A DNA stretch of 64,000 nucleotides from the NCBI GenBank assembly GCA_024875585.1, contig GCA_024875585.1_4107.1, one strand, 5' to 3'. The notes under the pieces were generated by a model. That model ran no database searches. It was not told where the DNA came from and saw nothing but the letters and a program-made list of their open reading frames with translations. This document shows, piece by piece, positions 16,158 to 29,227 of this stretch. How positions within the stretch are numbered: position 1 is the first letter of the stretch; every line of letters starts with the position of its first letter. This DNA is from a phage. The translations under genes and the position numbers were made by a program.

Positions 16158-17507
16158 TTATTGTAATGGAATTTCAGTGAGTGTTTTATATGTACTTCCG
16201 TTATACACCCCTCTCCAATATACTTTACCATCAGTACTAACCACTAATAATCCATATGTTGTAAACCCAAGAGTACCACCAACATACATAGCATCTTTGA
16301 TTCTAATACCAATGTCTTCATATGTAAATGACGCGACTGCACCCGCTTGCCATGACGGACTAGCGTAGTAATCACTATAAACACCATGTGCTTTATATAT
16401 TGATGTTGTTCCTGGTTCAAAAATTACAGTTCCACAGTAGTTCATTCGTATTTTAGTACTGGATGAAGTTGGTACATTTATACCCACGTCATCTTTTATC
16501 CCTGTGGTTAGAACGTTAAAACCCCCCGCCACACGGTTGACATCATTCTCACCGATTGAATACATACCAACGTTGTAGCCCATATAATACACACTAGAAC
16601 TTCCATTCCAGAAAGAAAAACCACCACCATTACCACAGCGATATAGTTGTGAATTTGAGCAGTACATCATACCTTCGTTTGTTGCATCAAATTCATCTGC
16701 TGTTCCGATCACAGCCACTGTAGTCCATGTTTTAATCACTTGGTTTGCACTAGCGGGTTTTTGAATACCATATCGTATATTATATCCTTTACCGACTATT
16801 GTACCATCTTCTAATTTGGCATAAAGTACAGGTCTATTACCAACAAAATACATATTATTGTGTGACATGTCTATTGTACGTCTTAATGAAACTACTTTTT
16901 TTGTCAATTGATTATCTTTAGTAAAAGACGTAAAGTAGTAATCCGATGTTGAATTGTTTATTAAACCTTGTATTGACAACCCCATATACCAGATTTCTCC
17001 CTTACTATTCAAAGATGCCAAAATACAACTATATTTTGAAGTGTATGTTGGGTTTACTGAAGTTGCTGGTCCTTTGTCATATCCACCACAGAATACCATC
17101 TCCACAACTTCACCTACGTTAGCAAAATAAGAAGATACATTGATAAAACCATTTGTTATAAAAGGTGCTGTATTTATACTTGAATGTGTGAATATCCCAT
17201 TTGCATATACACCACAAAAATGATATGAACCATCATTATCTTGGACTATTATTCCATTTGATAGTAACCAAAAATTGTTTACATTTTTTCTTACTAATTC
17301 GATTCCTGCCCCATTAGTTGGCGTTATACCAAAAGAAACATATTTTGTTTGACCAATTCCATATAAATTTCCATTTGATGCTAATATTGCACCAAACCAA
17401 TTACCACCACCATTCTTGTTATGACCCATACCTATAGAATCAAATTTCTTAACAGTAGGAGCTTGTACTTTGTTCCCATAATTCACCATTCTTCCAAAAG
17501 GTAACAT
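16158..17507 (-). CDS. RCC1-like repeat protein, paralog 2 (most diverged)
   Basis: N-terminus MLPFGRMVNYGN; LYGIGQTKYVSFG, LYRCGNGGGFSFWNGSS. Confidence 0.65.
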   Translation of the reverse strand: MLPFGRMVNYGNKVQAPTVKKFDSIGMGHNKNGGGNWFGAILASNGNLYGIGQTKYVSFGITPTNGAGIELVRKNVNNFWLLSNGIIVQDNDGSYHFCGVYANGIFTHSSINTAPFITNGFINVSSYFANVGEVVEMVFCGGYDKGPATSVNPTYTSKYSCILASLNSKGEIWYMGLSIQGLINNSTSDYYFTSFTKDNQLTKKVVSLRRTIDMSHNNMYFVGNRPVLYAKLEDGTIVGKGYNIRYGIQKPASANQVIKTWTTVAVIGTADEFDATNEGMMYCSNSQLYRCGNGGGFSFWNGSSSVYYMGYNVGMYSIGENDVNRVAGGFNVLTTGIKDDVGINVPTSSSTKIRMNYCGTVIFEPGTTSIYKAHGVYSDYYASPSWQAGAVASFTYEDIGIRIKDAMYVGGTLGFTTYGLLVVSTDGKVYWRGVYNGSTYKTLTEIPLQ

Positions 17508-17573
17508 ATTTCCCTCCTTTATTCATTATACTATATTTAATACTAAAAGAAAAAGCCAGTATCAAGTACTGGC
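17508..17573 (-). promoter_or_regulatory. conserved upstream cassette + terminator hairpin
   Basis: ...aaatatagTATAATgaataaaggagggaaatATG (minus); hairpin gccagtatcaagtactggc 17555-17573. Confidence 0.5.
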
Positions 17574-17579
17574 ATTATG

Positions 17580-18689
17580 TCATTTTGGTAAATTAATTTT
17601 AGTAAAGACTGCAACATCCTCGATTGCACCAGGAATTGCGTAATACGATCCAGTACTATATACATCTCCGTCTTTGGTTAATATTGATGTTAAACCATCA
17701 CTAAAAAGAACATCCCTAATCTCACTAACTTCAACGGGTAATTGTAAATTAGTAGCACTATATATTGCACCAGTTTGAGAATTGTTTAATCCCAAACCAC
17801 GGTTCGCCCCAACACCCTTCTGATATGTACTAGTAATTACCATTTGTGTAGCAGTATTTAAGGCAGGTGAATTCGTCATAAACAACGGTGAACTATTAGG
17901 CAAAGTACTTGCAGGAACTGCACGAAATGTAGTTGTATCTGAACTAAGAAAGTTTGGCGTTTGACCACATACGAAATATGATGTACCATTATAGTAATTA
18001 AATGCATTACCACCAATGACTGCATCGATTACACCAGAGCTACGTAATCCCCACGTGTTAATTTGTGTTCGGTTCCCCGTGCCATGCTGACCCCTGTCAT
18101 TCCACCCAGAACTATATAACTTATTATCTAATGTAATATACATACTGTCATTTGCATTCGTCATTACTTTACGCACATTAGTAGCACATTGAGTTAATGT
18201 GTAAATTGATGATGAACCAATACCTAAAGCACCACGATATCCATTAGCTCCTGCACCATAGAGTACTGAACTAGTGCTAAGTACAAATATTAAACCATAC
18301 GAACATACAATATTAGCAATTTCACTCACTGGTATAGCACTGGTAAACCAATTAGTTCTTTCAACTAATACTGTGCTGTAAGAAGTAGTTGTAGACGATG
18401 TGAACCAATATGTTTCCCCTGATGTCCATATAGTATTATCATTTTTAATAATAACAAGTGCACGATCACCTACGAAAAAATTAGAAACATCTGCACTTAC
18501 TAATATCCATGAAGATACCGTGTTTTTATTACCATTTCCAGATTCACCACCTTGATTTCTACCTATGTAATATAAATCATGTGAATCAGTTAATAAGAAT
18601 TGACCCTGTGTAGATGCACCAACTTTAATTATATTTTTAGGACCAGGTACAATATTCCCATAATCAAACATTCTTACAAAAGGTAACAT
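17580..18689 (-). CDS. RCC1-like repeat protein, paralog 3
   Basis: start at MLPFVRMFDYGN (18689) as in paralogs; LYYIGRNQGGESGNGNK, LYGAGANGYRGALGIGSS, LYSSGWNDRGQHGTGNRT. Confidence 0.75.
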   Translation of the reverse strand: MLPFVRMFDYGNIVPGPKNIIKVGASTQGQFLLTDSHDLYYIGRNQGGESGNGNKNTVSSWILVSADVSNFFVGDRALVIIKNDNTIWTSGETYWFTSSTTTSYSTVLVERTNWFTSAIPVSEIANIVCSYGLIFVLSTSSVLYGAGANGYRGALGIGSSSIYTLTQCATNVRKVMTNANDSMYITLDNKLYSSGWNDRGQHGTGNRTQINTWGLRSSGVIDAVIGGNAFNYYNGTSYFVCGQTPNFLSSDTTTFRAVPASTLPNSSPLFMTNSPALNTATQMVITSTYQKGVGANRGLGLNNSQTGAIYSATNLQLPVEVSEIRDVLFSDGLTSILTKDGDVYSTGSYYAIPGAIEDVAVFTKINLPK

Positions 18690-18760
18690 AACTAAAATCT
18701 CCATATAATAATTATAATGTATTTACAAAAAAATACCAGTACGTATTTCAGTACTGGTAT
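18690..18760 (-). promoter_or_regulatory. upstream cassette + terminator hairpin
   Basis: minus reading gtaaatacatTATAATtattatatggagattttagttATG; hairpin ataccagtac-gtatttca-gtactggtat 18734-18760. Confidence 0.45.
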
Positions 18761-18763
18761 CAT

Positions 18764-19945
18764 TTATGGTAAAATGATAGATTGTAACGAACTCATACCC
18801 AATGCTGGAACACTAGCCTGTGGTGCTGGAGAATTCAATTTTGGTGATGAAACCGCATATGACATTCCTGAACCCAAATCTGGATCAAAAACTACAGCAC
18901 AATAATTCCCACTATATATAAGTCCATTCTTGTATCCTTGTGCACTTTGAATGCATTTCGTGAACGTACCAATATCTGTCGTGGCATTTATTAAGTTCCT
19001 CCCACGATAACCGCAGGTGTATATGAAATTATCATCGCCTATGTACATACTAGAATCCCCAGAAGAACTACATAGATACGACATATAAGCACGCATGTTT
19101 TTAGGAGCAACTGACAATGTACCTGCATAGAATTTATTATTCGAACCCGTAATATCACCATCACCCAATGCACCAAAACTTCCCCAGCCAGTACCGTAAT
19201 ATCTCTTATCACTCAAAAATATAATACAGTTGTTATTACACATCTTGATTTGATATATCAATGAAGGATCAACCCCAGGGAATGATTCAGTGAATGTTAG
19301 AACAGCCGGATCAGTACTAGCATTACATTGATGATATGTATTAGTACCAGCGGACAAGATTGTTCCATTAGCTAACAGAATTCTCGCAGTACCAGTACCA
19401 GCAGTACAAGCAACTGCACTTCCTGCACTTCCGGTGTATATTTGTCTGAAAGTAAAGAAACCAACAGTTTTACTTCCCTGCCCACTCCAACCAGTATTAT
19501 CAACTCCACACGCCCATACTGAACCATCTTGCATGATCATCATTACACCAAAGCGTTCTATTGAAATATAAACAATCTTCGTTGTATCAACTGCACTAAA
19601 TCTAGAAGTTATATCAGTCCATACCTTAACACTTACCGCCGTCGCACTGGAAGTAGGATCTTCACCAGCTATCATTATCCTCCCATTGTTAGTAAGATAC
19701 ATTGTCTGACTATAACCAGTACTACAAAACTTAACACTATCAGTCTCTGGAACTTTTAACCACTCGTTGTAACGTGTTACGTTAGTGTTATTACCTAACT
19801 GATAATAGTTATTCATCCCAGATACATATAACACACCATCCTTTATTAAACTATAAGTCGCACTATAGTCACTACAGGTATAACGTGTACCCACAGGTCG
19901 CTCAACGACGTTCCCGTACTTAACCATTCTCCCAAAAGGTAACAT
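18764..19945 (-). CDS. RCC1-like repeat protein, paralog 4
   Basis: MLPFGRMVKYGN; LYVSGMNNYYQLGNNTN, VWACGVDNTGWSGQGSK, YYGTGWGSFGALGDGD. Confidence 0.75.
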   Translation of the reverse strand: MLPFGRMVKYGNVVERPVGTRYTCSDYSATYSLIKDGVLYVSGMNNYYQLGNNTNVTRYNEWLKVPETDSVKFCSTGYSQTMYLTNNGRIMIAGEDPTSSATAVSVKVWTDITSRFSAVDTTKIVYISIERFGVMMIMQDGSVWACGVDNTGWSGQGSKTVGFFTFRQIYTGSAGSAVACTAGTGTARILLANGTILSAGTNTYHQCNASTDPAVLTFTESFPGVDPSLIYQIKMCNNNCIIFLSDKRYYGTGWGSFGALGDGDITGSNNKFYAGTLSVAPKNMRAYMSYLCSSSGDSSMYIGDDNFIYTCGYRGRNLINATTDIGTFTKCIQSAQGYKNGLIYSGNYCAVVFDPDLGSGMSYAVSSPKLNSPAPQASVPALGMSSLQSIILP

Positions 19946-20011
19946 ATTTTCCTCCTTTATTCATTATACTATATTTAATACAAAAAGAAATGCCAGTATC
20001 AAGTACTGGCA
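19946..20011 (-). promoter_or_regulatory. conserved upstream cassette + terminator hairpin
   Basis: ...aaatatagTATAATgaataaaggaggaaaatATG (minus); hairpin tgccagtatcaagtactggca 19991-20011. Confidence 0.5.
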
Positions 20012-20018
20012 TATTAAT

Positions 20019-21167
20019 TCATTGTATAAATGACATATCTACTTCTGTATAATTAAGAACGTTCTGTCCAGAAATACCACCCATTACTACTATTGCAAGG
20101 CCACAATAATATAATTTTCCAGTATCCGTAAGTATAAGTGATCCAGATGGACTGCGTACCAAATCACACGAACTATTAAAAGAAGTATAAGAAGGAGTAT
20201 AGGAGTACTGATTATTATTATTACCAACACCTAATTGCCCAAACCCATTCGATCCAGAAGCATATAGAACTTCATCTGCTTTGACAATATGTGATGCCAT
20301 GTTACCAACACAAGTATATAGAGTATAAACTCCTGAACTCAATAATGTCGGAGTTTTATATTGTATATCTGTAGATGTAGAAGTACCACCTGTACCAAAT
20401 TCGTTCCCATATTGTGCACCGAACTGTTTACCACAAGCGTACAAATTATTATCCGATTTGATAAAAAATGTACTCTGATAACTTACATTAAAATCTATAA
20501 CATCCGAAGAAATCATCGTCACCCCAGTAATAGAAGTTTGATTACCCGTGCCCAACTGGTAGTAATAGTTAAAACCACAACCCCATAAAGTATTATCTTC
20601 TCGCAAATAAATGTTACCAACTGCCTTTTTAACCGAAGTTATAGTATCTACTCTTTTGAATGTGTTAAAAGAATTAATGTTTGTACCATCACCAAATGAT
20701 GATATGTTCGATATATTGTTAACTCCACAACAATACAATGTACCATCTTTTGTTATCAAATTCACCTTCATATCATAAAAACTACTCATGTATTTTATAT
20801 CAGAAACATTAACACCACTTGATGTTATCCACGTAGTACAGTCCGTCCACAAAGTTTTTCTATCAGTTACACCAGTGAATGCCTTCGTGTTACCAGTGAT
20901 AAAAACTTTTCCAGTACCTTTCTCTTCATACAATTGACAATCACTACTGTTATCTTCCAATAGAACTCGTTTAACATTCTCCGCACAAAGAATAAATTTA
21001 CTCGATGCTACACCTGTACCAGTACCCCAATTCGTCGCAGAAGATGCATACAACTTATCAGTATAAGTATCATGAAGATACATAGAATCACTGGAATATA
21101 TTTTAAAACGCCCTTCTTTCTCAGGTATAATATTCCCGTACTTAACCATTCTCCCAAAAGGTAACAT
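20019..21167 (-). CDS. RCC1-like repeat protein, paralog 5
   Basis: MLPFGRMVKYGN; LWGCGFNYYYQLGTGNQT, LYACGKQFGAQYGNEFGTG, LYASGSNGFGQLGVGNNN. Confidence 0.8.
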   Translation of the reverse strand: MLPFGRMVKYGNIIPEKEGRFKIYSSDSMYLHDTYTDKLYASSATNWGTGTGVASSKFILCAENVKRVLLEDNSSDCQLYEEKGTGKVFITGNTKAFTGVTDRKTLWTDCTTWITSSGVNVSDIKYMSSFYDMKVNLITKDGTLYCCGVNNISNISSFGDGTNINSFNTFKRVDTITSVKKAVGNIYLREDNTLWGCGFNYYYQLGTGNQTSITGVTMISSDVIDFNVSYQSTFFIKSDNNLYACGKQFGAQYGNEFGTGGTSTSTDIQYKTPTLLSSGVYTLYTCVGNMASHIVKADEVLYASGSNGFGQLGVGNNNNQYSYTPSYTSFNSSCDLVRSPSGSLILTDTGKLYYCGLAIVVMGGISGQNVLNYTEVDMSFIQ

Positions 21168-21209: not shown

Positions 21210-21238
21210 TTGACACCCTTTCAGTACTGTTGTACGAT
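21210..21238 (+). promoter_or_regulatory. sigma70-type promoter of the family C array (divergent from RCC1 island)
   Basis: TTGACA(21210-15)-17nt-TACGAT(21233-38); spacer contains cagtactg. Confidence 0.55.
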
Positions 21239-21263
21239 AGAAGGAATATTAGGAGAACTACAC

Positions 21264-21491
21264 ATGACAAATACCCTTAAGTACTACCTCAATACTCTGC
21301 CCGACCTAGAGTACGGGAAGTTTCTCGCAGATAGTTCGTGGCTGATTGAGCTAAAAACACATAACAGCCCTGGATGCACCCTTATGATGAACAATGCAAT
21401 TGATACCCTTATAGTGAGTATTTTACATAGCAATATCTACGAGGATAACAATAAACAATTAACAAAAATCTTAGTACTGCTATCTCTATGA
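21264..21491 (+). CDS. family C small protein (diverged member)
   Basis: ATG 21264 after aggag; LKYYLNTL.., MNNAIDTLI.., tail ILVLLSL. Confidence 0.65.
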   Translation: MTNTLKYYLNTLPDLEYGKFLADSSWLIELKTHNSPGCTLMMNNAIDTLIVSILHSNIYEDNNKQLTKILVLLSL

Positions 21492-21700
21492 ACACTATGA
21501 GCACTGAACAGTTCTACATCAATGCACTACCAACTAAAAGTCTTCAAGAAAGCTTACTGTATACACAAAAGAATTTTAAAAACTTCAAACGTTGCCCTAA
21601 ACTACTGAACTCGTACAGGAATAATATTATAAGAAATGTTTTACAAGGAGAAGAAAGTATGCAATACTATCACATCCTTATCCTTATATTGGAGTACTAA
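21488..21700 (+). CDS. family C small protein
   Basis: ATGA overlap; EQFYINAL.., tail ILILILEY. Confidence 0.65.
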   Translation: MNTMSTEQFYINALPTKSLQESLLYTQKNFKNFKRCPKLLNSYRNNIIRNVLQGEESMQYYHILILILEY

Positions 21701-21701
21701 T

Positions 21702-21911
21702 ATGAATACTGAACATAAAGAATTCTACACCAAATACCTCAGTAACGAAGAACAATTGTTTCTAAGAAGTGTATCACCTGTAAGTACCAATACTCAATTC
21801 GGTAGAGATTGCTTTAATAATTGTATACGTAGTACCCTAGAAGCTATCGAATACAATAACAAAAATATTATGTACTCAGGTTTAATAGGACTAATATTCT
21901 TCTATGAATAA
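21702..21911 (+). CDS. family C small protein
   Basis: MNTEHKEFYTKYL.., FNNCIRSTLEAI, tail LIGLIFFYE. Confidence 0.7.
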   Translation: MNTEHKEFYTKYLSNEEQLFLRSVSPVSTNTQFGRDCFNNCIRSTLEAIEYNNKNIMYSGLIGLIFFYE

Positions 21912-22098
21912 TCATAAAGATTTCTATGGTAGTAAACTACACAAACATGAACAGCTATCATTCTCTTTAGCACCACCTATGAGAAAGGATAATCTATATT
22001 ATAATTACGATTTCAGGATGGCGACACGTTATGCAATAGAACATCAGTTCCCTGAAACTAAGTACCGCTCTATCCTGAACCTCATCTTTAAGTTCTAA
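21904..22098 (+). CDS. family C small protein
   Basis: MNNHKDFYGSKL.., tail ILNLIFKF. Confidence 0.7.
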   Translation: MNNHKDFYGSKLHKHEQLSFSLAPPMRKDNLYYNYDFRMATRYAIEHQFPETKYRSILNLIFKF

Positions 22099-22145
22099 AA
22101 ACCGCACCAGGGTCCGAGTACTTTAACATAGTAAGGCTAATTACA

Positions 22146-22331
22146 ATGAATCACATAAGCTACTACTACCAACAACTATCCGACAGAGACAAGTACAGCC
22201 ACAATTCCCATGTATGGTACTACAAACGCGGCAGTATAAGAGACAAACAACATTACTTCTGTATTTCTATTAAAGAAGCACTAACAACTAAGTACACGTA
22301 CAGAGCAGTACTTAAACTAATCTCTATCTAA
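22146..22331 (+). CDS. family C small protein
   Basis: MNHISYYYQQL.., tail VLKLISI. Confidence 0.6.
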   Translation: MNHISYYYQQLSDRDKYSHNSHVWYYKRGSIRDKQHYFCISIKEALTTKYTYRAVLKLISI

Positions 22332-22339
22332 GGAATACT

Positions 22340-22519
22340 ATGCAAGAATTCTATATAGAACATATAACCATAAAAGACCGTTTCATGTACGACACCTTCG
22401 TGAAATACTACAAACTGGGAACAAAAAGTACTAAAAATATAAATCTCAATAGCTGCATTCATTCTGCACTAACAAAAGAAAATCCCTTCAGGGAAATCCT
22501 TGCACTTGCATCTGTATAA
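22340..22519 (+). CDS. family C small protein (59 aa; below ORF-track cutoff)
   Basis: MQEFYIEHI...NSCIHSALTKEN...ILALASV; SD aagga. Confidence 0.6.
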   Translation: MQEFYIEHITIKDRFMYDTFVKYYKLGTKSTKNINLNSCIHSALTKENPFREILALASV

Positions 22520-22529
22520 AGGAATTCAA

Positions 22530-23189
22530 ATGAAACTTAATCCACACAGTAAACAATACCTTAAGCACTTTAAATACCTCAACAGTATTCAAGCAGAATC
22601 AGTTACATCATCTTATACGTATCACCCGAATATACTAAAGAAACGAAATAAAAAGAAAAAATCCAGACCTGTTCTCGTATCTAAGAACCTCAAATCGTAC
22701 TTGAAGAAAAATAATATAGCTCTTGCTTTTATTAGTATCTATAATACTGATTTAAAAGTATTGAGTACTAATACCAGCACAAAAGCACTAAAGAATGCAT
22801 CTATCTATATACACATGGATAATATCCCGTGCACTATAATTCTATCTTTCGGGAATGTATACTTCTTCGGGAATTGTAATAGCACCCATGATATCAGTAC
22901 TGCACAATTCCAAATCGGAGATATGTACTGCATGGGTTCAGAAAAAATACACGATAACATGCACTTCTTCCAAAAGCAACGTACTAACGAAACTGATACA
23001 GTACTGCAATTCCTCAAAGAATTACAAAACAAAGAATTATCCGAGGAAGAAGAATTCATGTACAGTACTGTAATCGATAATCCAGGACTCTATAAAAACG
23101 CGTACAAACTAACAAAACATGTACAGGAACTTATCAGTACTGATAAGAAATTCCATCACCTCATTACGTATATTTCAAACTATGTATAA
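22530..23189 (+). CDS. hypothetical protein (219 aa) embedded in family C array; family B-like core
   Basis: ATG 22530 after aaagga; LSEEEEFMYSTVIDN resembles family B LSDESLFQYSTMYDN (Q replaced by M). Confidence 0.7.
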   Translation: MKLNPHSKQYLKHFKYLNSIQAESVTSSYTYHPNILKKRNKKKKSRPVLVSKNLKSYLKKNNIALAFISIYNTDLKVLSTNTSTKALKNASIYIHMDNIPCTIILSFGNVYFFGNCNSTHDISTAQFQIGDMYCMGSEKIHDNMHFFQKQRTNETDTVLQFLKELQNKELSEEEEFMYSTVIDNPGLYKNAYKLTKHVQELISTDKKFHHLITYISNYV

Positions 23190-23364
23190 AGAATTCTACA
23201 AAGATAAAATCCCAATGCATCTACAACACCATATACCAAACGTTGCATTGGGCATAAAAGATCACGCAAAGATAATGTTCCAACAATGTACTAAGTACAC
23301 GCTCATATACGATGATAATCCATATATGCTGTACTACGTAGTAATGCTAACATTCAGGTACTAA
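23182..23364 (+). CDS. family C small protein
   Basis: MYKEFYKDKI.., tail VVMLTFRY. Confidence 0.7.
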   Translation: MYKEFYKDKIPMHLQHHIPNVALGIKDHAKIMFQQCTKYTLIYDDNPYMLYYVVMLTFRY

Positions 23365-23365
23365 T

Positions 23366-23545
23366 ATGCACAAATATAAAGAATTCTACCTCTCGTACCT
23401 TAATTCCGATATAGTAACATCCAATACCTTCAGTACTAAAATTATCTATAATGAAGTAATGAAAGAATGTATTAAAGGTGCTATTAACCCTAAAGATACG
23501 TATGACTTGTACTATGCAGTACTAACCCTTGTTTTCACGAAATAA
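23366..23545 (+). CDS. family C small protein (59 aa; below ORF-track cutoff)
   Basis: MHKYKEFYLSYL...MKECIKGAINPK...VLTLVFTK; ggtactaatATG junction. Confidence 0.6.
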   Translation: MHKYKEFYLSYLNSDIVTSNTFSTKIIYNEVMKECIKGAINPKDTYDLYYAVLTLVFTK

Positions 23546-23553
23546 CACATAAT

Positions 23554-23742
23554 ATGAATAACCACAAAGAATACTACATACAATTTCTCCCCAGTATTTT
23601 TGAACACTACGCCAGATATAAAGTCCCCCTGGATAACGATTTGGCAGTACTGGGATTCAATCACTGCATAGAACGAAGTATAGAAAATAGTAATAGCTAT
23701 GAACAATTATATAACACTATCCTACTTATATTCAGGTACTAA
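23554..23742 (+). CDS. family C small protein
   Basis: MNNHKEYYIQFL.., FNHCIERSIENS, tail ILLIFRY. Confidence 0.75.
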   Translation: MNNHKEYYIQFLPSIFEHYARYKVPLDNDLAVLGFNHCIERSIENSNSYEQLYNTILLIFRY

Positions 23743-23743
23743 T

Positions 23744-23932
23744 ATGCACAAAGAATACTACGCAAAATATTTCCCAATGTATCTCAGAACTAATCTATTA
23801 GATAAACCTCGCGATATCAATGCACAAAACGATAAAGTGTACTTTATTATGTGCACTAAAGCATGTATACTAGATCATGACAGCTACCATCGAGTACTGT
23901 ATCATACACTGTACCTAGCTTTCGTATTCTAA
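23744..23932 (+). CDS. family C small protein
   Basis: MHKEYYAKYF.., tail LYLAFVF; ggtactaatATG junction. Confidence 0.75.
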   Translation: MHKEYYAKYFPMYLRTNLLDKPRDINAQNDKVYFIMCTKACILDHDSYHRVLYHTLYLAFVF

Positions 23933-23941
23933 GAGAACAAT

Positions 23942-24127
23942 ATGCATAAAGAATTCTACTTAAGCCATCTGGATCTAAACTCCCAAATGCTTATACCACT
24001 AATCCCAATAGATATCAAGGATAAGAAAAATACCGAACAATTCATTTACCATACACAGTGTGCGATCACCCCAAATTACATTCCATATGAATTGTACTAC
24101 ATTCTCGCCCTAATATATAGGTACTAA
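23942..24127 (+). CDS. family C small protein
   Basis: MHKEFYLSHL.., tail LALIYRY. Confidence 0.75.
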   Translation: MHKEFYLSHLDLNSQMLIPLIPIDIKDKKNTEQFIYHTQCAITPNYIPYELYYILALIYRY

Positions 24128-24128
24128 T

Positions 24129-24314
24129 ATGCATAGAGAATACTACACACAATTTGTTAAAGGGAACTACAAACATGCCGTACCCAGAACCCCTTTAAAT
24201 TCTCATGACCCAAGTACTATATTCCTGTTTAATGACGCAATACGTACAGTACTCAATACTAAAGATGAACAAGTGCAGTACGTATTCTTACTTTTACTTA
24301 TATACAGACACTAA
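24129..24314 (+). CDS. family C small protein
   Basis: MHREYYTQFV.., FNDAIRTVLNTK, tail LLLIYRH; 18-bp tandem duplication (atacagacactaactaat x2, 24302-24337) at its 3' junction. Confidence 0.75.
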   Translation: MHREYYTQFVKGNYKHAVPRTPLNSHDPSTIFLFNDAIRTVLNTKDEQVQYVFLLLLIYRH

Positions 24315-24337
24315 CTAATATACAGACACTAACTAAT

Positions 24338-24520
24338 ATGAATAAAGAACATAAAGACTTCTACATAAGAAAACTAACATTCGTCCCCGTAAGAATATAC
24401 AAAGAATGCGACCCAAGATTATACCTATGGCACTTCAATGAGTGCATAAAAGATTCTATATACCCTAAGAACTATAAAGAACAATTGTGCTCAGTACTAA
24501 CACTAGTACTATCATATTAA
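24338..24520 (+). CDS. family C small protein
   Basis: MNKEHKDFYIRKL.., FNECIKDSIYPK, tail LTLVLSY. Confidence 0.75.
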   Translation: MNKEHKDFYIRKLTFVPVRIYKECDPRLYLWHFNECIKDSIYPKNYKEQLCSVLTLVLSY

Positions 24521-24533
24521 TAGAGATAATACT

Positions 24534-24725
24534 ATGTATAAAGAGTACTATATAAGTAAACTCAAAGAGAATGAACAAGCATGGATTAAATCTATAATAG
24601 CACTTGCATTTAATAGATATGCATTTAACAGATGCACAGAGATTGCTATAGAACCTTGTCCTATTAAAGAGAAGGCACAGTACAATCAGTACTACTATAT
24701 GTTAATGCTTATATATAGAAAGTAA
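24534..24725 (+). CDS. family C small protein
   Basis: MYKEYYISKL.., FNRCTEIAIEPC, tail LMLIYRK. Confidence 0.75.
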   Translation: MYKEYYISKLKENEQAWIKSIIALAFNRYAFNRCTEIAIEPCPIKEKAQYNQYYYMLMLIYRK

Positions 24726-25381
24726 TTCAACATAGAGACAGGGGAAGCTCCGCAGGGTAAGCATTGGACAGGCTTTAACATATGTTATATATGTTAAAAT
24801 TCAGCCTGGACAAATGCGATCACTAGGATTCTCCCCAGGCTAAACCCCGTAATCATATATAAACATTTAAGTAATCATTTATAATCATTGTGGTGATCAG
24901 TAGTGATTAGTATTGAGTACTAGAGTGTAATAGAGTACAGGAATGTGCACGTTTAATCAAGAACGTAGCAGTACTGATATGCCACTAAGTAGGCAGAGGA
25001 AGTCTGCCGTACTTTGTAGTTTCCAAGCTCCTTTTCCATTTTGCAAATTACATCAAATGTAATCAAAAGTAATCACGTAATGATTAGTACTGAAATATTA
25101 GTTTCATCTTTTTTCAAATACCTTTTTACCCTTCGGGATAAATGTATTTTTATCCATTTACCTTTGGGGTAAAATCCCATTACCCCTTGAGGCTCCAGCA
25201 AAAAGTTGGAAAGTACTCCATCGTAAATATGGATCGTAAAAATTTTGGAGTACCTATGAAATAAAAGTTGGATCTTCGAAAGTTGAAATTTACGTTGGGA
25301 CATTGATGTTTTTTGGGATATAATGAGTTTTGTAGTGATGAAGTTTGTACGATTACAGTACTGAATAATGAAAGAAAGCTA

Positions 25382-25409
25382 TTGACATTATGATTCAGTA
25401 CTGTATAAT
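25382..25409 (+). promoter_or_regulatory. orphan sigma70-type promoter (no ORF downstream)
   Basis: TTGACA(25382-87)-16nt-TATAAT(25404-09) with cagtacTG extended -10. Confidence 0.55.
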
Positions 25410-25811
25410 GTTCTACATAGAGAGATGAGTTGCCGCAAACAATTCATTCACTCTACCTCCTGTCGTGAGACAGTACAGAAAAGATAGTTCCTCCTATGCG
25501 TGGTACATCTTTTTATAACCTCTTTTTTAGTAATATAAACAGTACTGGTATTAACAGAATGGTATCAGTACTGACTTTAATCTAATACATTATACCACCA
25601 GCACAAGCTGGTGGATTCCCTCTAACAGTATTCAGTACTACATGATAGTCTTCATCCTCCTAGGGTAACATAGTGAGGGCTATTGTGGGAGTACTGAATA
25701 CTCCTTTCAAAAGATAGAATAATGGTATAGTACCGACGGATTTTGGGCGTAGTTACCCTGGGTGGATTTTGGACGTAGATATGTCTAGCCCTCCAGAAGT
25801 CTGGAAGTAAA

Positions 25812-25923
25812 GATGGCTATCCATCTAGACGGCTAAACGGATAGATTTCTAGATGGCTGTATGGCTAGACGTTTGGATGGCTAAACGGCTAGATGGTTAC
25901 ACGTCTGGAAGTATAGACGGCTA
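25812..25923. repeat. 8-bp-periodic iteron-like array (about 14 units, consensus GAYGGCTA)
   Basis: gatggcta tccatcta gacggcta aacggata gatttcta gatggctg tatggcta gacgtttg gatggcta aacggcta gatggtta cacgtctg gaagtata gacggcta; flanked by gtctggaagta at 25797 and 25901. Confidence 0.7.
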
Positions 25924-26084
25924 AATCAAAATTTTTATTTTGTTTTTCCAATAGTTCCCCTACCGCGTGAGGATATTTTTCCCCGCAGTATCTGGAGTTA
26001 GATTTTTCTGAATCTGGAATCATTATCTAATAAACTGGGGGCAATGTCAACCGCCTGGATGAATATTTTTAAAAATAATCTAGT

Positions 26085-26174
26085 ACTGAATTTTGGGCGT
26101 AACTATGCACCCGGTGGGCTTGAGTCTTTCTCGACTTGATGAAACTATTATACAGTACTAGAAAAATAAAGCAA
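26085..26174 (-). ncRNA. candidate small-RNA unit (own promoter + CCCAC-core transcript)
   Basis: minus reading TTGCTT(26174-69)-16nt-TATAAT(26152-47), then agtttcatcaagtcgagaaagactcaagCCCACCGGGTGCatagttacgcccaaaattc; no ORF. Confidence 0.35.
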
Positions 26175-26261
26175 TACCCTAAACGCAAAAAAATTTAATT
26201 AATTTGCTTGCTATCCTGGGCCGTAATATGGTACTATTAGTTCAGTACTGAGAAAGTGCTT

Positions 26262-26290
26262 TAACCTGCTAGGGTGCGGGAGTGTATCCT
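26262..26290 (+). repeat. partial plus-orientation copy of the CCCAC-N-GGGTGCGGGAGTGTATC element
   Basis: ctgctAGGGTGCGGGAGTGTATCc; faces the reverse copy at 26313-26324. Confidence 0.5.
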
Positions 26291-26294
26291 TTTT

Positions 26295-26391
26295 AAATTA
26301 TATGAATTTTGGGCGGATCTCGGCACCCTGTGGGTCAGTGCCTTGTGTCCGGCTTATGTAGTAATTATACGCTTTTTCAGTACTGAGTCAA
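26295..26391 (-). ncRNA. candidate small-RNA unit (own promoter + CCCAC-core transcript)
   Basis: minus reading TTGACT(26391-86)-16nt-TATAAT(26369-64), then tactacataagccggacacaaggcactgaCCCACAGGGTGCcgagatccgcccaaaattc; GGCAC/GUGCC can close an 11-nt loop. Confidence 0.35.
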
Positions 26392-26628
26392 TAGCTAAAA
26401 ACAAAAATAATTGAAAATAATTTAACGCGTTTAAACGGCCCGTAAAGCCCTGGAGTGATTGGAATGGTACAAATGTATAGCTTAGGTGTATTAATGCGTT
26501 AGAATGCGATTGAGGCCGTTTTATGGGGTGTAGTGGTGATTTGATTGATTCAGTACTGAATAATAGTACTGAAAGATAGTTCCCCTATATAGAAAGAAAA
26601 CTATTTTAAAAGTACATGTAGAAAGTAC

Positions 26629-26687
26629 TTGCAAACTATCTCAATTGGCGTATAATGTTTTACATCGAGAGCGGGAACACTTCCCGC
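26629..26687 (+). promoter_or_regulatory. early-type promoter + GGGAA/TTCCC leader hairpin
   Basis: aaAGTACTTGCAA-16nt-TATAAT(26651-56); hairpin gcgggaa-cac-ttcccgc 26671-87. Confidence 0.65.
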
Positions 26688-26711
26688 TGCACATAAAGAG
26701 AGATTAAAACG

Positions 26712-27074
26712 ATGGCTACTCAAATCAATAAAATTATTGCTAACCTGGTTAACTTCCGCGACGAGATGAAAGGTCTTCCGGCTGAAACGGTAAAAATTCA
26801 CATTTCAGCTTATCGGGAACTTATTGCAATGTTACCGCTTAAGCGTGAACAATACGCCGCTACCGTGATGCTTGATGCGATGATCCATAAGATGATCGCC
26901 AGTGATTTAACGATGGTTTATCAGTACATGGGCGAAAATTTCGCGGTGTCTGGTAAGCCAGTACCAGGGATGGCAACTACTGAGGAATTGCACGGTTTAA
27001 ATTTAAAACAAGATGCATGGGATAATATGCCTCGTTTCCTGGTATGGGCTGACAGTGGCAAAATTTACAAATAA
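26712..27074 (+). CDS. hypothetical protein (120 aa)
   Basis: clean ORF after promoter/hairpin; purine-rich SD agagag. Confidence 0.8.
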   Translation: MATQINKIIANLVNFRDEMKGLPAETVKIHISAYRELIAMLPLKREQYAATVMLDAMIHKMIASDLTMVYQYMGENFAVSGKPVPGMATTEELHGLNLKQDAWDNMPRFLVWADSGKIYK

Positions 27075-27088
27075 GTTTAATAAAGTAC

Positions 27089-27174
27089 TTGCATACTAAG
27101 TTAAAACAAGTATAATACTTTCTATCAGGTGCAACGGGAAGTTTTTAAACTTCCCTATAGGGGAATAGTTCCCC
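27089..27174 (+). promoter_or_regulatory. early-type promoter + tandem leader hairpins
   Basis: TTGCAT-16nt-TATAAT(27111-16); hairpin A gggaagtttttaaacttccc 27136-55; hairpin B ggggaa-tag-ttcccc 27160-74. Confidence 0.65.
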
Positions 27175-27195
27175 ACTATATAAGAGGATTAAAAA

Positions 27196-27435
27196 ATGGC
27201 TAAATCAAAAATGTTCTTAGGTCACAAAAACAAAACTCATTGGAATGTAAGCCTTTGGATTAATAACGATGAGTCATTGTACCGGTTGGCCCAGGACTTT
27301 ATTGCCGCCAACACTAATCGCAATGATGCGGCCCGTCATATGATGTTATTTTTAGAACAGACTGGACAAGATAAAACACCGGACGGATTCAAATATAGCA
27401 CTACTGCGATCCGTGCGGCGATGGTTGGAATGTAA
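27196..27435 (+). CDS. hypothetical small protein, paralog of 29228..29467
   Basis: GHKNKTHWNVSLWINNDESLYR...TPDGFKYSTTAIRAAMVGM shared with paralog. Confidence 0.85.
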   Translation: MAKSKMFLGHKNKTHWNVSLWINNDESLYRLAQDFIAANTNRNDAARHMMLFLEQTGQDKTPDGFKYSTTAIRAAMVGM

Positions 27436-27447
27436 TAGAATTTATTT

Positions 27448-27483
27448 AAAGTACTATCGCAAAAAATGATAGTACTTTATAAT
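27448..27483 (+). promoter_or_regulatory. promoter embedded in 11-bp inverted repeat
   Basis: AAAGTACTATC(27448-58)...GATAGTACTTT(27468-78) overlapping TATAAT(27478-83); weak -35 ATCGCA. Confidence 0.5.
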
Positions 27484-27520
27484 AGTGTTTTATTCATACA
27501 CCAACGATAAGGGCAACAGC

Positions 27521-27787
27521 ATGAATATTAAGTATTTTGCGACGCGTGAACAAGCTCGGAAGGCGGCGAAAGTGGAAGGTGCAACGTTTAAAGATATGGG
27601 CATACAATCGGAACGTGGTAAACGTTGGGCCATTGTAAAGCGTAGTACAGCCAGATCATTACAGTACTGGCTATCAGCTTTAAAAAGTCCTGATAGTGTA
27701 TCGCGTCGAGTGGTAGAAATAAAGCTCGACCGTAAGGGGAATCGTGTTACCGTGTACCGTACTAAAAAGATTGCAGTGCTTGAATAA
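27521..27787 (+). CDS. hypothetical small protein, paralog of 39641..40036
   Basis: MNIKYFATREQARKAAKVEGATFKDMG...DRKGNRVTVYRTKK shared pattern; ATG 27521. Confidence 0.8.
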   Translation: MNIKYFATREQARKAAKVEGATFKDMGIQSERGKRWAIVKRSTARSLQYWLSALKSPDSVSRRVVEIKLDRKGNRVTVYRTKKIAVLE

Positions 27788-27794
27788 AAAGTAC

Positions 27795-27853
27795 TTGCAA
27801 ACTATGTTTAATGGCGTATAATGTTTTACATCGAGAGCGGGAACACTTCCCGC
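27795..27853 (+). promoter_or_regulatory. early-type promoter + leader hairpin
   Basis: TTGCAA(27795-800)-16nt-TATAAT(27817-22); gcgggaa-cac-ttcccgc 27837-53. Confidence 0.65.
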
Positions 27854-27873
27854 CTATAACCTGGAGTAATAAA

Positions 27874-28104
27874 ATGACTAATATGTATATGACTGAAGTT
27901 AAAACCGTAAAAGATACTACCACTAATAAAACTACTTACTTACAGCGGATCTGTGGTGTATGGCAACGTATCAGCAAATCAAAGTACTTTAAATTAACAT
28001 CATATGCCAATCGTTCGGATTCATTCAGTACTGAAATAAAAGGTAATAAAGTACACCAATACGGCACTTATTATTATTATAGCCTGGCCGCGATTGCAGT
28101 ATAA
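27874..28104 (+). CDS. hypothetical small protein (76 aa)
   Basis: ATG 27874 after ctggag; the track start 27811 lies in the promoter. Confidence 0.7.
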   Translation: MTNMYMTEVKTVKDTTTNKTTYLQRICGVWQRISKSKYFKLTSYANRSDSFSTEIKGNKVHQYGTYYYYSLAAIAV

Positions 28105-28134
28105 GTAGTTTACAAATCTTTACAATTGCCGGTA

Positions 28135-28225
28135 TTGACTTAAAATGTCAGTACTGGCATAATGTATCTATTGAAACGAACAATTTGGCCCACGGGGTGC
28201 GGGAGTGTATCTATAGAAAAAGTAG
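28135..28225 (+). ncRNA. candidate small-RNA unit, rightward member of a convergent pair
   Basis: TTGACT(28135-40)-17nt-CATAAT(28158-63), then gtatctattgaaacgaacaatttggCCCACGGGGTGCGGGAGTGTATCtatag; no ORF. Confidence 0.35.
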
Positions 28226-28308
28226 TTTAGTACAGTTACAATTGTGCACCCGGTGGGTTAGCTGTTGTCATGGGATATATTATACCAGTACTGGATAGTG
28301 CTGTCAAT
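28226..28308 (-). ncRNA. candidate small-RNA unit, leftward member of a convergent pair
   Basis: minus reading TTGACA(28308-03)-18nt-TATAAT(28284-79), then atatcccatgacaacagctaaCCCACCGGGTGCacaattg. Confidence 0.35.
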
Positions 28309-28352
28309 ACCTTTTTACTATTCAGTACTGAAAACTATTTGATAAAAAGTAC

Positions 28353-28380
28353 TTGCAAACTATGTTTAAAGGCGTATAAT
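28353..28380 (+). promoter_or_regulatory. early-type promoter driving structured leader
   Basis: TTGCAA(28353-58)-16nt-TATAAT(28375-80); upstream ttcagtactgaa palindrome. Confidence 0.6.
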
Positions 28381-28386
28381 GTTTTA

Positions 28387-28466
28387 CATCAGGACGGGGA
28401 ATGAAATAAGTAACTTCCCGTTAAGTAGCCCAGGAGTAAGGCATACGAAAAACTCCCCTGATAAAA
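28387..28466 (+). ncRNA. structured leader / candidate RNA motif (three-way junction), copy 1
   Basis: P1 atcagg/cctgat, P2 acgggga/ttcccgt, P3 ggagt/actcc, helices abutting; near-identical copy at 38447. Confidence 0.45.
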
Positions 28467-28470
28467 TAGT

Positions 28471-28498
28471 TTGACAATTGTTTTTAAAAGCGTATAAT
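28471..28498 (+). promoter_or_regulatory. second sigma70-type promoter after the structured leader
   Basis: TTGACA(28471-76)-16nt-TATAAT(28493-98). Confidence 0.55.
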
Positions 28499-28530
28499 AC
28501 TTACATCAACTACTGAATGAGGGTTACAAA

Positions 28531-29142
28531 ATGAAAACTATCACTACTACTACTTATGTTATGGATTTTTCTGAATTGAACGCAGAACAAAAAACGTCAG
28601 CTATCGAACTGGTTCGGGAACGTGAAAAAAACTTAAACGACGATTATTTTTCTGAAAGTGAAATTGAATACTATAAAGAAACAGTATTGCCGGAATATGG
28701 CATTAATGAAGCTGAAATACAATTCAGTGGTTTTTGGTCGCAGGGTGACGGTGCATCAATTAGTACTGACCACGTTGACGCAGTGAAGTTTTTACGTAAG
28801 GTAAGAGCATTAACTAAGTATCGCTCAATCCGTCACCTGCTGAATGAAGATGATTTGGCGATGAGTGTAAAGCGTTCTCACTCCCGCTACTCACATGAGA
28901 ACACTGTAAGCGGGTACATTGAATCGGCTTACACTGATTTAACCGCAAAACAAGAAACGTTAGTTAATGAGCTTGAGGAACTACTCACTGATACTATTCG
29001 TGAATTATCCCGCAAGTTGTACCGTGATTTAGAAAATGCATATGAGGATCAATTCACTACTGAAAACATCGTATCACTGATTGAGGGTAACGAATATCAA
29101 TTCAATGTTATTGATGGCGTAGTAGAATCAATTGCATATTAA
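28531..29142 (+). CDS. hypothetical acidic protein (203 aa)
   Basis: SD tgaggg; contains FSGFWSQGDGASISTD motif that I cannot place in a family. Confidence 0.85.
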   Translation: MKTITTTTYVMDFSELNAEQKTSAIELVREREKNLNDDYFSESEIEYYKETVLPEYGINEAEIQFSGFWSQGDGASISTDHVDAVKFLRKVRALTKYRSIRHLLNEDDLAMSVKRSHSRYSHENTVSGYIESAYTDLTAKQETLVNELEELLTDTIRELSRKLYRDLENAYEDQFTTENIVSLIEGNEYQFNVIDGVVESIAY

Positions 29143-29149
29143 AAAGTAC

Positions 29150-29209: not shown

Positions 29210-29227
29210 TCAAACGAGGATTTAAAA

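What the first reader, a model, noticed from the sequence alone, without database searches (positions are those of the whole stretch)
21264..24725. Family C: 15-gene tandem array of about 60-aa KE(F/Y)Y...L(I/V)(F/Y)RY proteins
Fourteen short genes (59-75 aa) and one long insert gene share three features:
- an N-terminal M(N)xHKE(F/Y)YxxxL
- a central (F/M)N(x)CI(K/R)xx(I/L) box
- a hydrophobic tail YxxLLxL(I/V)(F/Y)RY

Many junctions reuse the same sequence, ggtactaatATG.

Two members (22340..22519 and 23366..23545) are 59 aa and are therefore missing from the 60-aa ORF track.

An 18-bp tandem duplication (24302-24337) sits at one gene junction, consistent with ongoing slippage or recombination.

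The array is driven by the promoter at 21210, which is divergent from the RCC1 island.

The family is unknown to me.
Basis: partly seen in the sequence, partly recalled or inferred. Interest (0 to 1): 0.6.

Follow-up and report, generated by a model that had tools for sequence, protein, structure and literature searches.

The report
Tandem small-protein gene family in jumbo coliphage
A giant E. coli phage carries 14 diverged tandem copies of a gene for a 60-residue helical protein of unknown function, and the copy number changes between related phages by recombination, which suggests a role in host interaction that has not been tested.

Summary
The array is real. The window comes from an Asteriusvirus (a 121Q/PBECO4-like jumbo coliphage). 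At 21264-24725 the + strand carries 14 short genes of one family (PHROG phrog_11711, function unknown, no Pfam) plus one 219-aa gene (phrog_29152) that is not demonstrably related.

- **Coding:** the ORFs are intact in all 11 Asteriusvirus genomes compared, and pooled dN/dS is 0.35.
- **Fold:** AlphaFold predicts a soluble four-helix protein (pLDDT 89). The hydrophobic C-terminus is core helix 4, not a membrane anchor.
- **Distribution:** a search of 1.84 billion proteins found 30 clusters. Every phage match was an E. coli or Salmonella Asteriusvirus.
- **Copy number:** it ranges from 14 to 21. Breakpoints lie in 24-47 nt of homology at gene ends, and one relative has an in-frame chimera.
- **Divergence:** against phage JNE01 the array proteins are 20-59% identical, while flanking proteins are 88-97%.
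- **Expression signals:** a conserved sigma-70-like promoter precedes the array, and stop/start junctions (AGG TAC TAA T ATG) suggest translational coupling.
- **Position:** the array ends 263 nt before the predicted terminal repeat.

The most likely reading is a diversifying accessory operon for host interaction. The function is inferred only.

The parts
21210..21238 (+). Sigma-70-like promoter TTGACA-17-TACGAT. It has an A-rich upstream stretch and TTCAGTACTG in the spacer.
   Evidence: One search gives 10 of 12 matches. One search shows the -35 invariant in 11 genomes and the -10 reading TACTAT, TACAAT or TACGAT. One search shows the AGTACT spacer motif shared with the strong promoters at 25-43 kb. 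Function is inferred, with no transcript data.
21250..21255 (+). Shine-Dalgarno TAGGAG (AAGGAG in relatives) for gene 1.
21264..21491 (+). Gene 1 (slot A), 75 aa, a divergent family member.
   Evidence: The leave-out HMM gives only 10 bits and there is no PHROG hit. It is present in all 10 genomes mapped.
21488..21700 (+). Gene 2 (slot V, a variant of B), 70 aa counted from the ATG at 21488. Its start overlaps the stop of gene 1 (ATGA).
   Evidence: The leave-out HMM gives E 5e-6.
21702..21911 (+). Gene 3 (slot C), 69 aa.
   Evidence: One search gives phrog_11711 E 9e-13. One search gives E 3e-15.
21904..22098 (+). Gene 4 (slot D), 64 aa. It overlaps gene 3 by 8 nt.
   Evidence: One search gives E 2e-22. 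Among its orthologues dN/dS is 2.2, based on few substitutions.
22146..22331 (+). Gene 5 (slot E), 61 aa.
   Evidence: One search gives E 7e-8.
22340..22519 (+). Gene 6 (slot J), 59 aa.
   Evidence: One search gives E 1e-7.
22530..23189 (+). Embedded 219-aa gene (phrog_29152, function unknown). It is conserved at this position in every relative examined, and broken in Salmonella phage SD-6_S16. It is not demonstrably a family member.
   Evidence: One search gives E 7e-114 to phrog_29152. Homologues occur only in the same phage group. hhalign against the family gives 0.2%. The AF2 model has pLDDT 36.6 and is uninformative.
23182..23364 (+). Gene 8 (slot K), 60 aa. It ends in AGG TAC TAA.
23366..23545 (+). 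Gene 9 (slot L), 59 aa.
23554..23742 (+). Gene 10 (slot N), 62 aa. This is the member whose structure was modelled. Its first 24 nt are the M/N recombination junction.
   Evidence: One search gives pLDDT 89 and four helices. One search shows 23557-23580 matching the 5' ends of both M and N in JP4.
23744..23932 (+). Gene 11 (slot O), 62 aa.
23942..24127 (+). Gene 12 (slot P), 61 aa.
24129..24314 (+). Gene 13 (slot Q), 61 aa.
24296..24339 (+). 18-bp tandem duplication (ACTAATATACAGACACTA, 2.4 copies). It lies at the junction where slots R and S are missing, and is not found in the relatives checked.
24338..24520 (+). Gene 14 (slot T), 60 aa.
24534..24725 (+). Gene 15 (slot U), 63 aa, the last gene of the array.
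22308..22342 (+). 35-nt stretch that matches both the E-end and the I-end junctions of phage JP4. It marks the breakpoint of the F-G-H-I copy-number difference.
24741..24850 (+). Structured, highly conserved non-coding element directly after the array. It may be the 3' end of the operon or a signal near the genome terminus.
   Evidence: folds 24741-24836 at -39 kcal/mol, z -3.0. One search shows about 65 nt nearly invariant in 11 genomes, including divergent JNE01. Its role is unknown.
24988..24988 (.). Predicted physical genome end, which is the start of the roughly 21-kb direct terminal repeat. The prediction rests on homology to phage fEgEco12.
   Evidence: fEgEco12 nt 1 aligns to window 24988. 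Its termini were determined experimentally (PMC13070987).

Best explanation
**What it is (shown).** This is an operon-like tandem array of a genus-restricted multigene family in an Asteriusvirus jumbo coliphage. It holds 14 paralogous genes for small soluble proteins of about 60 aa, predicted to form four helices, plus one unrelated 219-aa gene. The conserved residues are Y7/Y8, L12, F35, C38/I39, I43, L52, I55/L56 and L58/I59. They recur on helical faces, which is the pattern expected of a hydrophobic core. Helix 2, the following loop and the first half of helix 3 are hypervariable.

**How it evolves (shown).** The array expands, contracts and shuffles by unequal homologous recombination. The crossovers fall in short stretches that all copies share at their 5' ends (ATG..CACAAAGAATTCTAC, encoding HKEFY) and at their 3' ends and junctions.

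**How it is expressed (inferred).** Host sigma-70 RNA polymerase would transcribe the whole array from the conserved promoter at 21210. Translation would be coupled from gene to gene. In the recurring junction AGG TAC TAA T ATG, the Arg-Tyr codons of one gene supply the AGGT ribosome-binding site of the next.

**What it does (inferred, weakest step).** The proteins would be non-virion accessory factors that each bind a host target, such as a defence or takeover target. Multiple diverged copies would give breadth against variable hosts. This resembles the multigene families next to the terminal repeats of large eukaryotic DNA viruses.
For: - **Family and array:**
- **Coding under selection:** pooled dN/dS is 0.35. 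Variable sites favour the third codon position, and all copies are intact in 11 genomes.
- **Fold:** pLDDT 89, pTM 0.73, four helices.
- **Core versus variable positions:** per-column entropy. Within orthologue groups, polymorphism is 2.25 groups per core column against 4.15 per other column.
- **No membrane segment:**
- **Narrow distribution:** 30 clusters among 1.84e9 representatives. tblastn with members from that search hits only Escherichia and Salmonella Asteriusvirus records.
- **Copy number 14-21 and slot map:**
- **Breakpoints in 24-47 nt of shared sequence:**
- **In-frame K/M chimera in SD-6_S16, and junction transfer in UE-S1:**
- **Hypervariable island:** array proteins are 20-59% identical to JNE01, while flanking proteins are 88-97%.
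- **Promoter conservation:**. The same AGTACT spacer motif occurs in the strong promoters of the predicted terminal repeat.
- **Coupling signal:** all 35 C-terminal Arg-Tyr pairs are encoded AGGTAC, whereas AGG makes up 53 of 419 Arg codons elsewhere in these genes. AGGT lies upstream of 51 of 178 starts.
- **Not in the virion:** the phAPEC6 mass-spectrometry list includes RCC1-like gp549 and gp551 but none of gp530-548 (PMC7247149).
- **Precedent:** in the related phage CBB, RpoD-type promoters cluster in front of short hypothetical ORFs, which the authors regard as early host-takeover genes (PMC5259590).
Against: - There is no transcript, proteomic or phenotypic evidence for any member.
- Neither sequence nor fold links the family to any protein of known function. 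The binder or counter-defence role therefore rests on evolutionary pattern and analogy alone.
- The -10 element is weak (TACGAT in this window), and promoter-like matches in the region as a whole are no more frequent than in shuffled sequence.
- Fast divergence could reflect relaxed constraint rather than diversifying selection. The orthologue groups with dN/dS at or above 1 (D, I, M) rest on few substitutions, and recombination among paralogues could produce the same signal.
- AGGTAC at the junctions may be shared by descent or homogenised by recombination, rather than selected as a ribosome-binding site.
- Mass spectrometry often misses 7-kDa proteins.
Confidence: 0.5

Rival explanations
1. 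The proteins are small transcription or nucleic-acid regulators. Each paralogue would bind DNA, RNA or RNA polymerase to tune the early-to-middle programme. This would resemble the roughly 35-copy zinc-ribbon expansion of Bacillus phage G, which has been proposed to act as specific transcription factors.
For: - The proteins are small helical bundles.
- Median pI is 8.3.
- The array lies beside the promoter-dense terminal repeat.
- A precedent exists in PMC7824862.
Against: - pI ranges from 4.4 to 10.0, and five of the window's 14 members are acidic.
- No helix-turn-helix or other DNA-binding fold was detected.
- Individual copies are freely lost between close relatives.
Confidence: 0.15
2. The proteins are structural or assembly subunits. 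Separately encoded helical-hairpin units would assemble with each other, or with the neighbouring virion RCC1-like propeller proteins, for example in the hair-like fibres of 121Q-type virions.
For: - The adjacent RCC1-like proteins are in the virion.
- These phages carry hair-like fibres (PMC7824862).
Against: - No array protein appears among the 62 virion proteins of phAPEC6.
- The promoter is of the host sigma-70 type, not a late type.
- Copy number and sequence vary too freely for a stoichiometric structure.
Confidence: 0.1
3. The proteins are membrane-targeted or tail-anchored small proteins, for example acting in superinfection exclusion or modulating lysis. This follows the first reader's suggestion about the hydrophobic C-terminus.
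For: The C-terminus is hydrophobic, with the pattern YxxLxLIxRY.
Against: - The highest 19-residue Kyte-Doolittle mean among 178 members is 1.23, below the roughly 1.6 usually taken to indicate a transmembrane helix.
- In the window's 14 members the longest run free of D, E, K, R, N, Q, H and P is 13 residues.
- The segment is modelled with high confidence as helix 4 packed in the bundle.
Confidence: 0.04
4. The array is functionally neutral. Duplicated filler DNA at a recombination-prone boundary between unique sequence and the terminal repeat would persist without selection, so the ORFs would have no product that matters. Alternatively the repeats could act at the DNA level.
For: - The array abuts the predicted terminal-repeat boundary.
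- Copies are gained and lost readily.
- Some orthologue groups show dN/dS at or above 1.
Against: - About 190 copies across 11 genomes keep intact ORFs of the same length class.
- Pooled dN/dS is 0.35.
- Conservation follows the periodicity of a protein core, while paralogues are too diverged at the nucleotide level to align across JNE01.
- Seven slots (A, C, E, J, N, Q, U) are kept in all 10 genomes mapped.
Confidence: 0.06

Closest known systems
PHROG family phrog_11711 (62-position profile, function unknown)
   Same: It is the same family. Eight window genes match it end to end, with E from 2e-6 to 5e-23.
   Different: PHROGs gives no function, structure or genomic description. Genes 1 and 2 fall outside its detection range (no hit, and E 0.16).
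Multigene families of African swine fever virus (MGF110, MGF360 and others) and poxvirus 'genomic accordions' next to the terminal repeats (own knowledge, not checked in the paper library)
   Same: - Tandem paralogues lie next to the genome's terminal repeat.
- Copy number differs between close isolates through unequal recombination.
- They diverge faster than the flanking genes.
- Individual copies are dispensable.
   Different: - Those are eukaryotic viruses with unrelated proteins.
- Their role in host range and immune evasion is experimentally shown, whereas here it is only inferred.
- Here the units are about 190 bp and translationally coupled in one operon.
Plastic early-gene regions of T4-type phages, and the early regions proposed for the related jumbo phage CBB (PMC5259590)
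   Same: Both are clusters of short hypothetical ORFs behind host-type sigma-70 promoters, variable between relatives, and assumed to act in host takeover or adaptation.
   Different: Those clusters consist mostly of unrelated ORFs, each with its own promoter. Here one family is repeated 14-21 times behind a single promoter, and recombination occurs at the conserved gene ends rather than at promoter cassettes.
Lineage-specific expansion of about 35 zinc-ribbon proteins in Bacillus phage G (PMC7824862)
   Same: Both are large lineage-specific expansions of a very small protein in a jumbo phage, with function unknown.
   Different: The fold differs (a zinc ribbon there, a four-helix bundle with no metal-binding site here). 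The host and the proposed role (DNA binding) also differ.
Tandem arrays of small immunity proteins in bacterial polymorphic-toxin loci (PMC3482391; analogy only)
   Same: Both are arrays of small diverged paralogues with copy-number variation, each thought to neutralise one variant of a polymorphic antagonist.
   Different: These are bacterial rather than phage loci. No toxin partner is present here, and no sequence or fold relationship was found.

Membership tests
phrog_11711 | A significant full-length match to the 62-position profile. | tested here: met
   genes 3, 4, 10, 12, 13, 14 and 15 match with E from 2e-6 to 5e-23. Gene 2 gives E 0.16 and gene 1 gives no hit. Genes 5, 6, 8, 9 and 11 were not submitted to PHROGs but pass the leave-out HMM test.
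phrog_11711 (for the 219-aa gene) | Profile similarity of the long gene to the family. | tested here: not met
   It matches only phrog_29152. hhalign gives 0.2%. hmmsearch gives 6 bits on residues 168-217. The structure model is too poor to judge.
Tail-anchored or single-pass membrane proteins | A hydrophobic segment of about 18 or more residues near the C-terminus. | tested here: not met
   the highest 19-residue Kyte-Doolittle mean among 178 members is 1.23, and in the window's 14 members the longest run free of D, E, K, R, N, Q, H and P is 13 residues; the segment is helix 4 of the bundle.
Virus multigene family evolving as a recombinational accordion | Tandem paralogues whose copy number differs between close relatives, with breakpoints inside homologous stretches and chimeric genes. 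| tested here: met
   Copy number is 14-21 in 10 genomes. Breakpoints fall in 24-47 nt shared stretches. An in-frame K/M chimera occurs in SD-6_S16.
Phage early (host RNA polymerase-dependent) genes | A sigma-70-type promoter upstream. | tested here: inconclusive
   A conserved TTGACA-17-TAC(T/A/G)AT site is present. However, the -10 is imperfect, and promoter-like matches in the region are not enriched over shuffled sequence.
Phage early (host RNA polymerase-dependent) genes | Transcripts appear within minutes of infection, independently of phage protein synthesis. | not testable with these tools
   No Asteriusvirus transcriptome was found in the paper library.
Anti-defence proteins (Acr-like and similar) | Similarity to a known inhibitor, or demonstrated inhibition of a defence system. 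| tested here: not met
   No similarity was found. The Foldseek match to AcrIIC4 has E 7.6 and TM 0.32, which is noise. The PDB profile search found nothing relevant. Inhibition itself cannot be tested here.
HEAT/ARM-type helical repeat | A helical hairpin unit that stacks into a solenoid. | tested here: inconclusive

The most novel reading that the evidence does not exclude
The array is a phage-encoded, recombination-driven library of small binder proteins built on one four-helix scaffold. Each copy would neutralise a different variant of a host defence or takeover target. Copy-number changes next to the terminal repeat would then set the host range of Asteriusvirus jumbo phages. This would be a bacteriophage counterpart of the multigene families of African swine fever virus and poxviruses.
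Probability: 0.25. Interest if true: 0.7.

Novelty: new member of a known kind. Interest (0 to 1): 0.42.

Why it matters
Jumbo phages are candidates for therapy, yet about 80% of their genes have no known function. This array is a well-defined set of dispensable, fast-evolving genes that differs between otherwise near-identical phages. It is therefore an obvious place to look for determinants of host range or counter-defence.

It also shows how such families turn over. Short sequences conserved at the gene ends appear to serve at once as protein motif, ribosome-binding site and recombination substrate.

If a function were shown, the array would be a clear case of an 'accordion' multigene family in a bacteriophage. 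As it stands, it is a well-documented family of unknown function.

Tried and rejected
- **Pfam and NCBIfam:** no hits.
- **PDB sequence profile:** one insignificant match to a designed repeat protein.
- **Long gene:** the AF2 model failed at pLDDT 36.6. Its membership was tested by hmmsearch and hhalign and rejected.
- **RNA searches:** Rfam and tRNA searches of the array and its downstream region found nothing.
- **Literature:** searches found no description of the array and no Asteriusvirus transcriptome.
- **Membrane or tail-anchor idea:** rejected on hydropathy and on the structure model.
- **Programmed frameshift or read-through fusing adjacent genes at TAC TAA T ATG:** considered and dropped. 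The site is not slippery, and the reading frames of successive genes follow no pattern (my own reading of the coordinates).
- **AGTACT enrichment as a property of the array:** rejected, because it is genome-wide.

Full report
**Identity of the window.** The array region matches 34 phage records at 80-98% nucleotide identity. All are Escherichia or Salmonella jumbo phages of about 310-385 kb in or near the genus Asteriusvirus, such as 121Q, PBECO4, SP27, JP4 and UE-S1. In every deposited genome the corresponding ORFs are annotated as 'hypothetical protein'.

**Checking the observation.**
- Fifteen consecutive + strand ORFs occupy 21264-24725. The 14 short ones are 59-75 aa and align with the consensus HKEFYxxxL...FNxCI...YxxLxLIxxY. 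Y8 is invariant.
- An HMM of the family finds exactly 14 members in the 64-kb window. None lies outside the array or on the other strand.
- The independent PHROG profile phrog_11711 (unknown function) matches 8 of the 9 short genes I submitted.
So is the 18-bp tandem duplication, at 24296-24339.
- GGTACTAATATG occurs three times exactly and once with one mismatch, always at junctions, against 0.43 expected by chance. 'Many junctions' therefore means 4 of 14.
- The 219-aa gene at 22530-23189 belongs to a different PHROG, phrog_29152. It shows no profile-profile similarity to the family: hhalign gives 0.2%, and hmmsearch gives a 6-bit C-terminal match. Its AlphaFold model is unusable at pLDDT 36.6. 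It is a conserved passenger in the array, not a demonstrable member.

- I mapped the family in nine relatives. All 164 copies found there are intact ORFs in the same orientation, and a more divergent relative, JNE01, has 14 more.
- Orthologue groups give a pooled dN/dS of 0.35.
- Variable sites fall 177, 112 and 86 times at codon positions 3, 1 and 2.
- Conservation across paralogues follows a helical core pattern. The genes code for proteins under moderate purifying selection.
- Three groups (D, I, M) have dN/dS at or above 1, based on few substitutions.

**What the protein looks like.**
- With a 52-sequence alignment, AlphaFold2 gives a confident model of gene 10: pLDDT 89, pTM 0.73, helices at residues 3-9, 14-21, 29-44 and 48-60.
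- The hydrophobic C-terminus is helix 4 of the bundle.
- Hydropathy rules out a membrane span. The highest 19-residue mean among 178 members is 1.23, and in the window's 14 members the longest run free of D, E, K, R, N, Q, H and P is 13 residues.
- pI ranges from 4.4 to 10.0.
- The low-entropy positions are Y7/Y8, L12, F35, C38/I39, I43, L52, I55/L56 and L58/I59. Helix 2, the loop and the start of helix 3 are the most variable, both between paralogues and within orthologue groups.

**Distribution.**
- An exhaustive profile search of 1.84 billion representative proteins finds only 30 clusters, all 41-69 aa.
- tblastn with members from that search hits only Escherichia and Salmonella Asteriusvirus records.
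- One metagenomic contig of 169 kb shows the same context, with RCC1/WD40-like genes on the other strand followed by the array and its 222-aa gene. A 3-kb fragment shows the array and the 222-aa gene only.

**Dynamics.**
- Clustering the 178 copies at 75% identity yields about 21 syntenic slots, A to U. JP4 has all 21. The window has A V C D E J [long gene] K L N O P Q T U.
- Relative to JP4 the window lacks F-G-H-I, M and R-S. Each breakpoint lies in a short stretch shared by the two flanking copies:
  - 35 nt at the E and I 3' junctions (22308-22342);
  - 24 nt at the M and N 5' ends (23557-23580);
  - the Q/R and S/T junction, where the 18-bp duplication sits.
- That duplication is absent from the 10 relatives fetched by then.
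- SD-6_S16 carries an in-frame chimera. The K N-terminus is fused to the C-terminal part of M, which is 100% identical to M of 121Q.
- UE-S1 has the C/D junction sequence transplanted in front of slot P.
- BF17 and EcMJ have slot C relocated and a diverged duplicate of U.
- Against JNE01 the array is mostly unalignable at the nucleotide level, and array proteins are 20-59% identical. Flanking proteins are 88-97% identical, and the downstream non-coding region is 83% identical.
- The array is therefore a hypervariable island in a conserved neighbourhood.

**Expression signals.**
- The intergenic region upstream contains TTGACA-17-TAC(T/A/G)AT with an invariant -35 in 11 genomes. It also has an A-rich upstream stretch and a conserved AAGGAG for gene 1.
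- Its spacer carries TTCAGTACTG. This motif is shared with the many perfect TTGACA-16-TATAAT promoters further downstream.
- Within the array there is only one weak promoter-like match, at 23877.
- Genes abut or overlap, with junctions of ATGA, 8-nt overlaps or TAATATG.
- All 35 C-terminal Arg-Tyr pairs are encoded AGG TAC, although AGG is a minority Arg codon elsewhere in these genes (53 of 419). AGGT lies in the ribosome-binding window of 51 of 178 starts.
- I infer translational coupling, and a dual constraint on the last two codons. These signals are consistent with one operon read by host RNA polymerase. No transcript data exist.

**Genomic position.**
- Phage fEgEco12 has experimentally confirmed termini and 20,993-bp direct terminal repeats (PMC13070987).
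- Its nucleotide 1 aligns to window 24988. This is 263 nt after the array's last stop codon.
- The array is thus the last unit of the unique region, abutting the right terminal repeat.
- Eleven of the 12 perfect + strand sigma-70 promoters (25382-43270) lie inside the predicted repeat.
- In the related phage CBB, such promoters in front of short ORFs were proposed to mark early host-takeover genes (PMC5259590).
- In phAPEC6 the neighbouring RCC1-like proteins are virion components, but none of gp530-548, the range that includes family member gp545c, is listed (PMC7247149).

**Interpretation.**
- Shown: a genus-restricted, protein-coding, tandem multigene family of small soluble helical proteins, which turns over by unequal recombination at conserved gene ends.
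- Inferred with moderate confidence: a single host-polymerase operon with translational coupling.
- Inferred with low confidence (about 0.3): the proteins are accessory binders of variable host targets, acting in counter-defence or takeover.
- The last inference rests on several observations:
  - the pattern of a conserved scaffold with variable surfaces;
  - the dispensability of individual copies;
  - fast divergence relative to the flanks;
  - the position next to the terminal repeat;
  - analogy to the multigene families of large eukaryotic DNA viruses.
- Rival readings are regulators, structural subunits, membrane proteins and neutral filler. They are weighed in the structured fields.

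**Verdict.** It is a new, uncharacterised member of a known kind of system, namely lineage-specific tandem gene families in large viruses. It is already present in databases as a PHROG of unknown function. Interest is moderate.

Noticed in passing
window 24988 onward (to about 46000): By homology to fEgEco12, whose termini were determined experimentally, the physical genome end and the start of the roughly 21-kb direct terminal repeat map to window 24988. The window therefore appears to come from an assembly in which the repeat is collapsed or joined.
   Followed up: partly
window 25382-43270, + strand: Eleven perfect TTGACA-16/17-TATAAT promoters lie inside the predicted terminal repeat, where my own arithmetic from base composition expects about 0.1 in the whole window. 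Many carry AGTACTG directly 5' of the -10 element, which suggests a phage-specific early promoter class or an operator palindrome.
   Followed up: partly
whole window: AGTACT occurs 225 times and GTAC 583 times in 64 kb. GCGC occurs 0 times, against roughly 50 expected from base composition. This looks like a genome-wide oligonucleotide bias, possibly linked to restriction avoidance or DNA modification.
   Followed up: no
window 1346, 5858, 9254, 10538, 34870, 38278, 41286, 43577 (+ strand): A cassette recurs with the form GGGTTGACTtagGTCAGCCCttttt(g)cTATAAT. It is a terminator-like hairpin plus T-run whose stem supplies the -35 of a following promoter. From memory, it resembles the promoter-stem-loop cassettes of T4-type phages.
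   Followed up: no
window 24741-24850: A structured non-coding element lies between the array and the predicted genome end (-39 kcal/mol, z -3.0). About 65 nt of it are nearly invariant in 11 genomes, including JNE01, where the array itself is unalignable. Rfam finds no match. It could be a terminator, a small RNA or a packaging signal.
   Followed up: partly
window 24726-26711: A 2-kb stretch has no ORF of 100 aa or more and no CDS annotated in 121Q, yet it is 83% identical to JNE01. It contains 16- and 24-nt iteron-like repeats (ATGGCTAnACGnCTAGATGG) at 25813-25924 and many TTCAGTACTGAA palindromes. It could be an origin, a regulatory hub or a terminus region.
   Followed up: partly
window 14940-21167, - strand: Five RCC1-like paralogues of 374-449 aa lie here. 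The copy next to the array (20019-21167) is only 25% identical to its best JNE01 match, while the next copy (18764-19945) is 97% identical. The hypervariable island therefore extends into the RCC1 family.
   Followed up: partly
window 11426-14206, + strand: Eight back-to-back ORFs of 104-141 aa lie here. The three I submitted match three different PHROGs of unknown function (19454, 19046, 27618). This may be another tandem family, but I did not test whether the ORFs are paralogues.
   Followed up: no
L008 (Salmonella phage SD-6_S16) 3875-4474: In this Salmonella-infecting relative the 219-aa gene is split into shorter ORFs, and slots K, L and M are replaced by one K/M chimera. This looks like decay or remodelling of the middle of the array.
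   Followed up: partly
window 23877-23905, + strand: An internal promoter-like site (ATGACA-17-TATCAT, preceded by AGTACTG) lies inside gene 11. It may be a chance product of the RVLYH codons.
   Followed up: no
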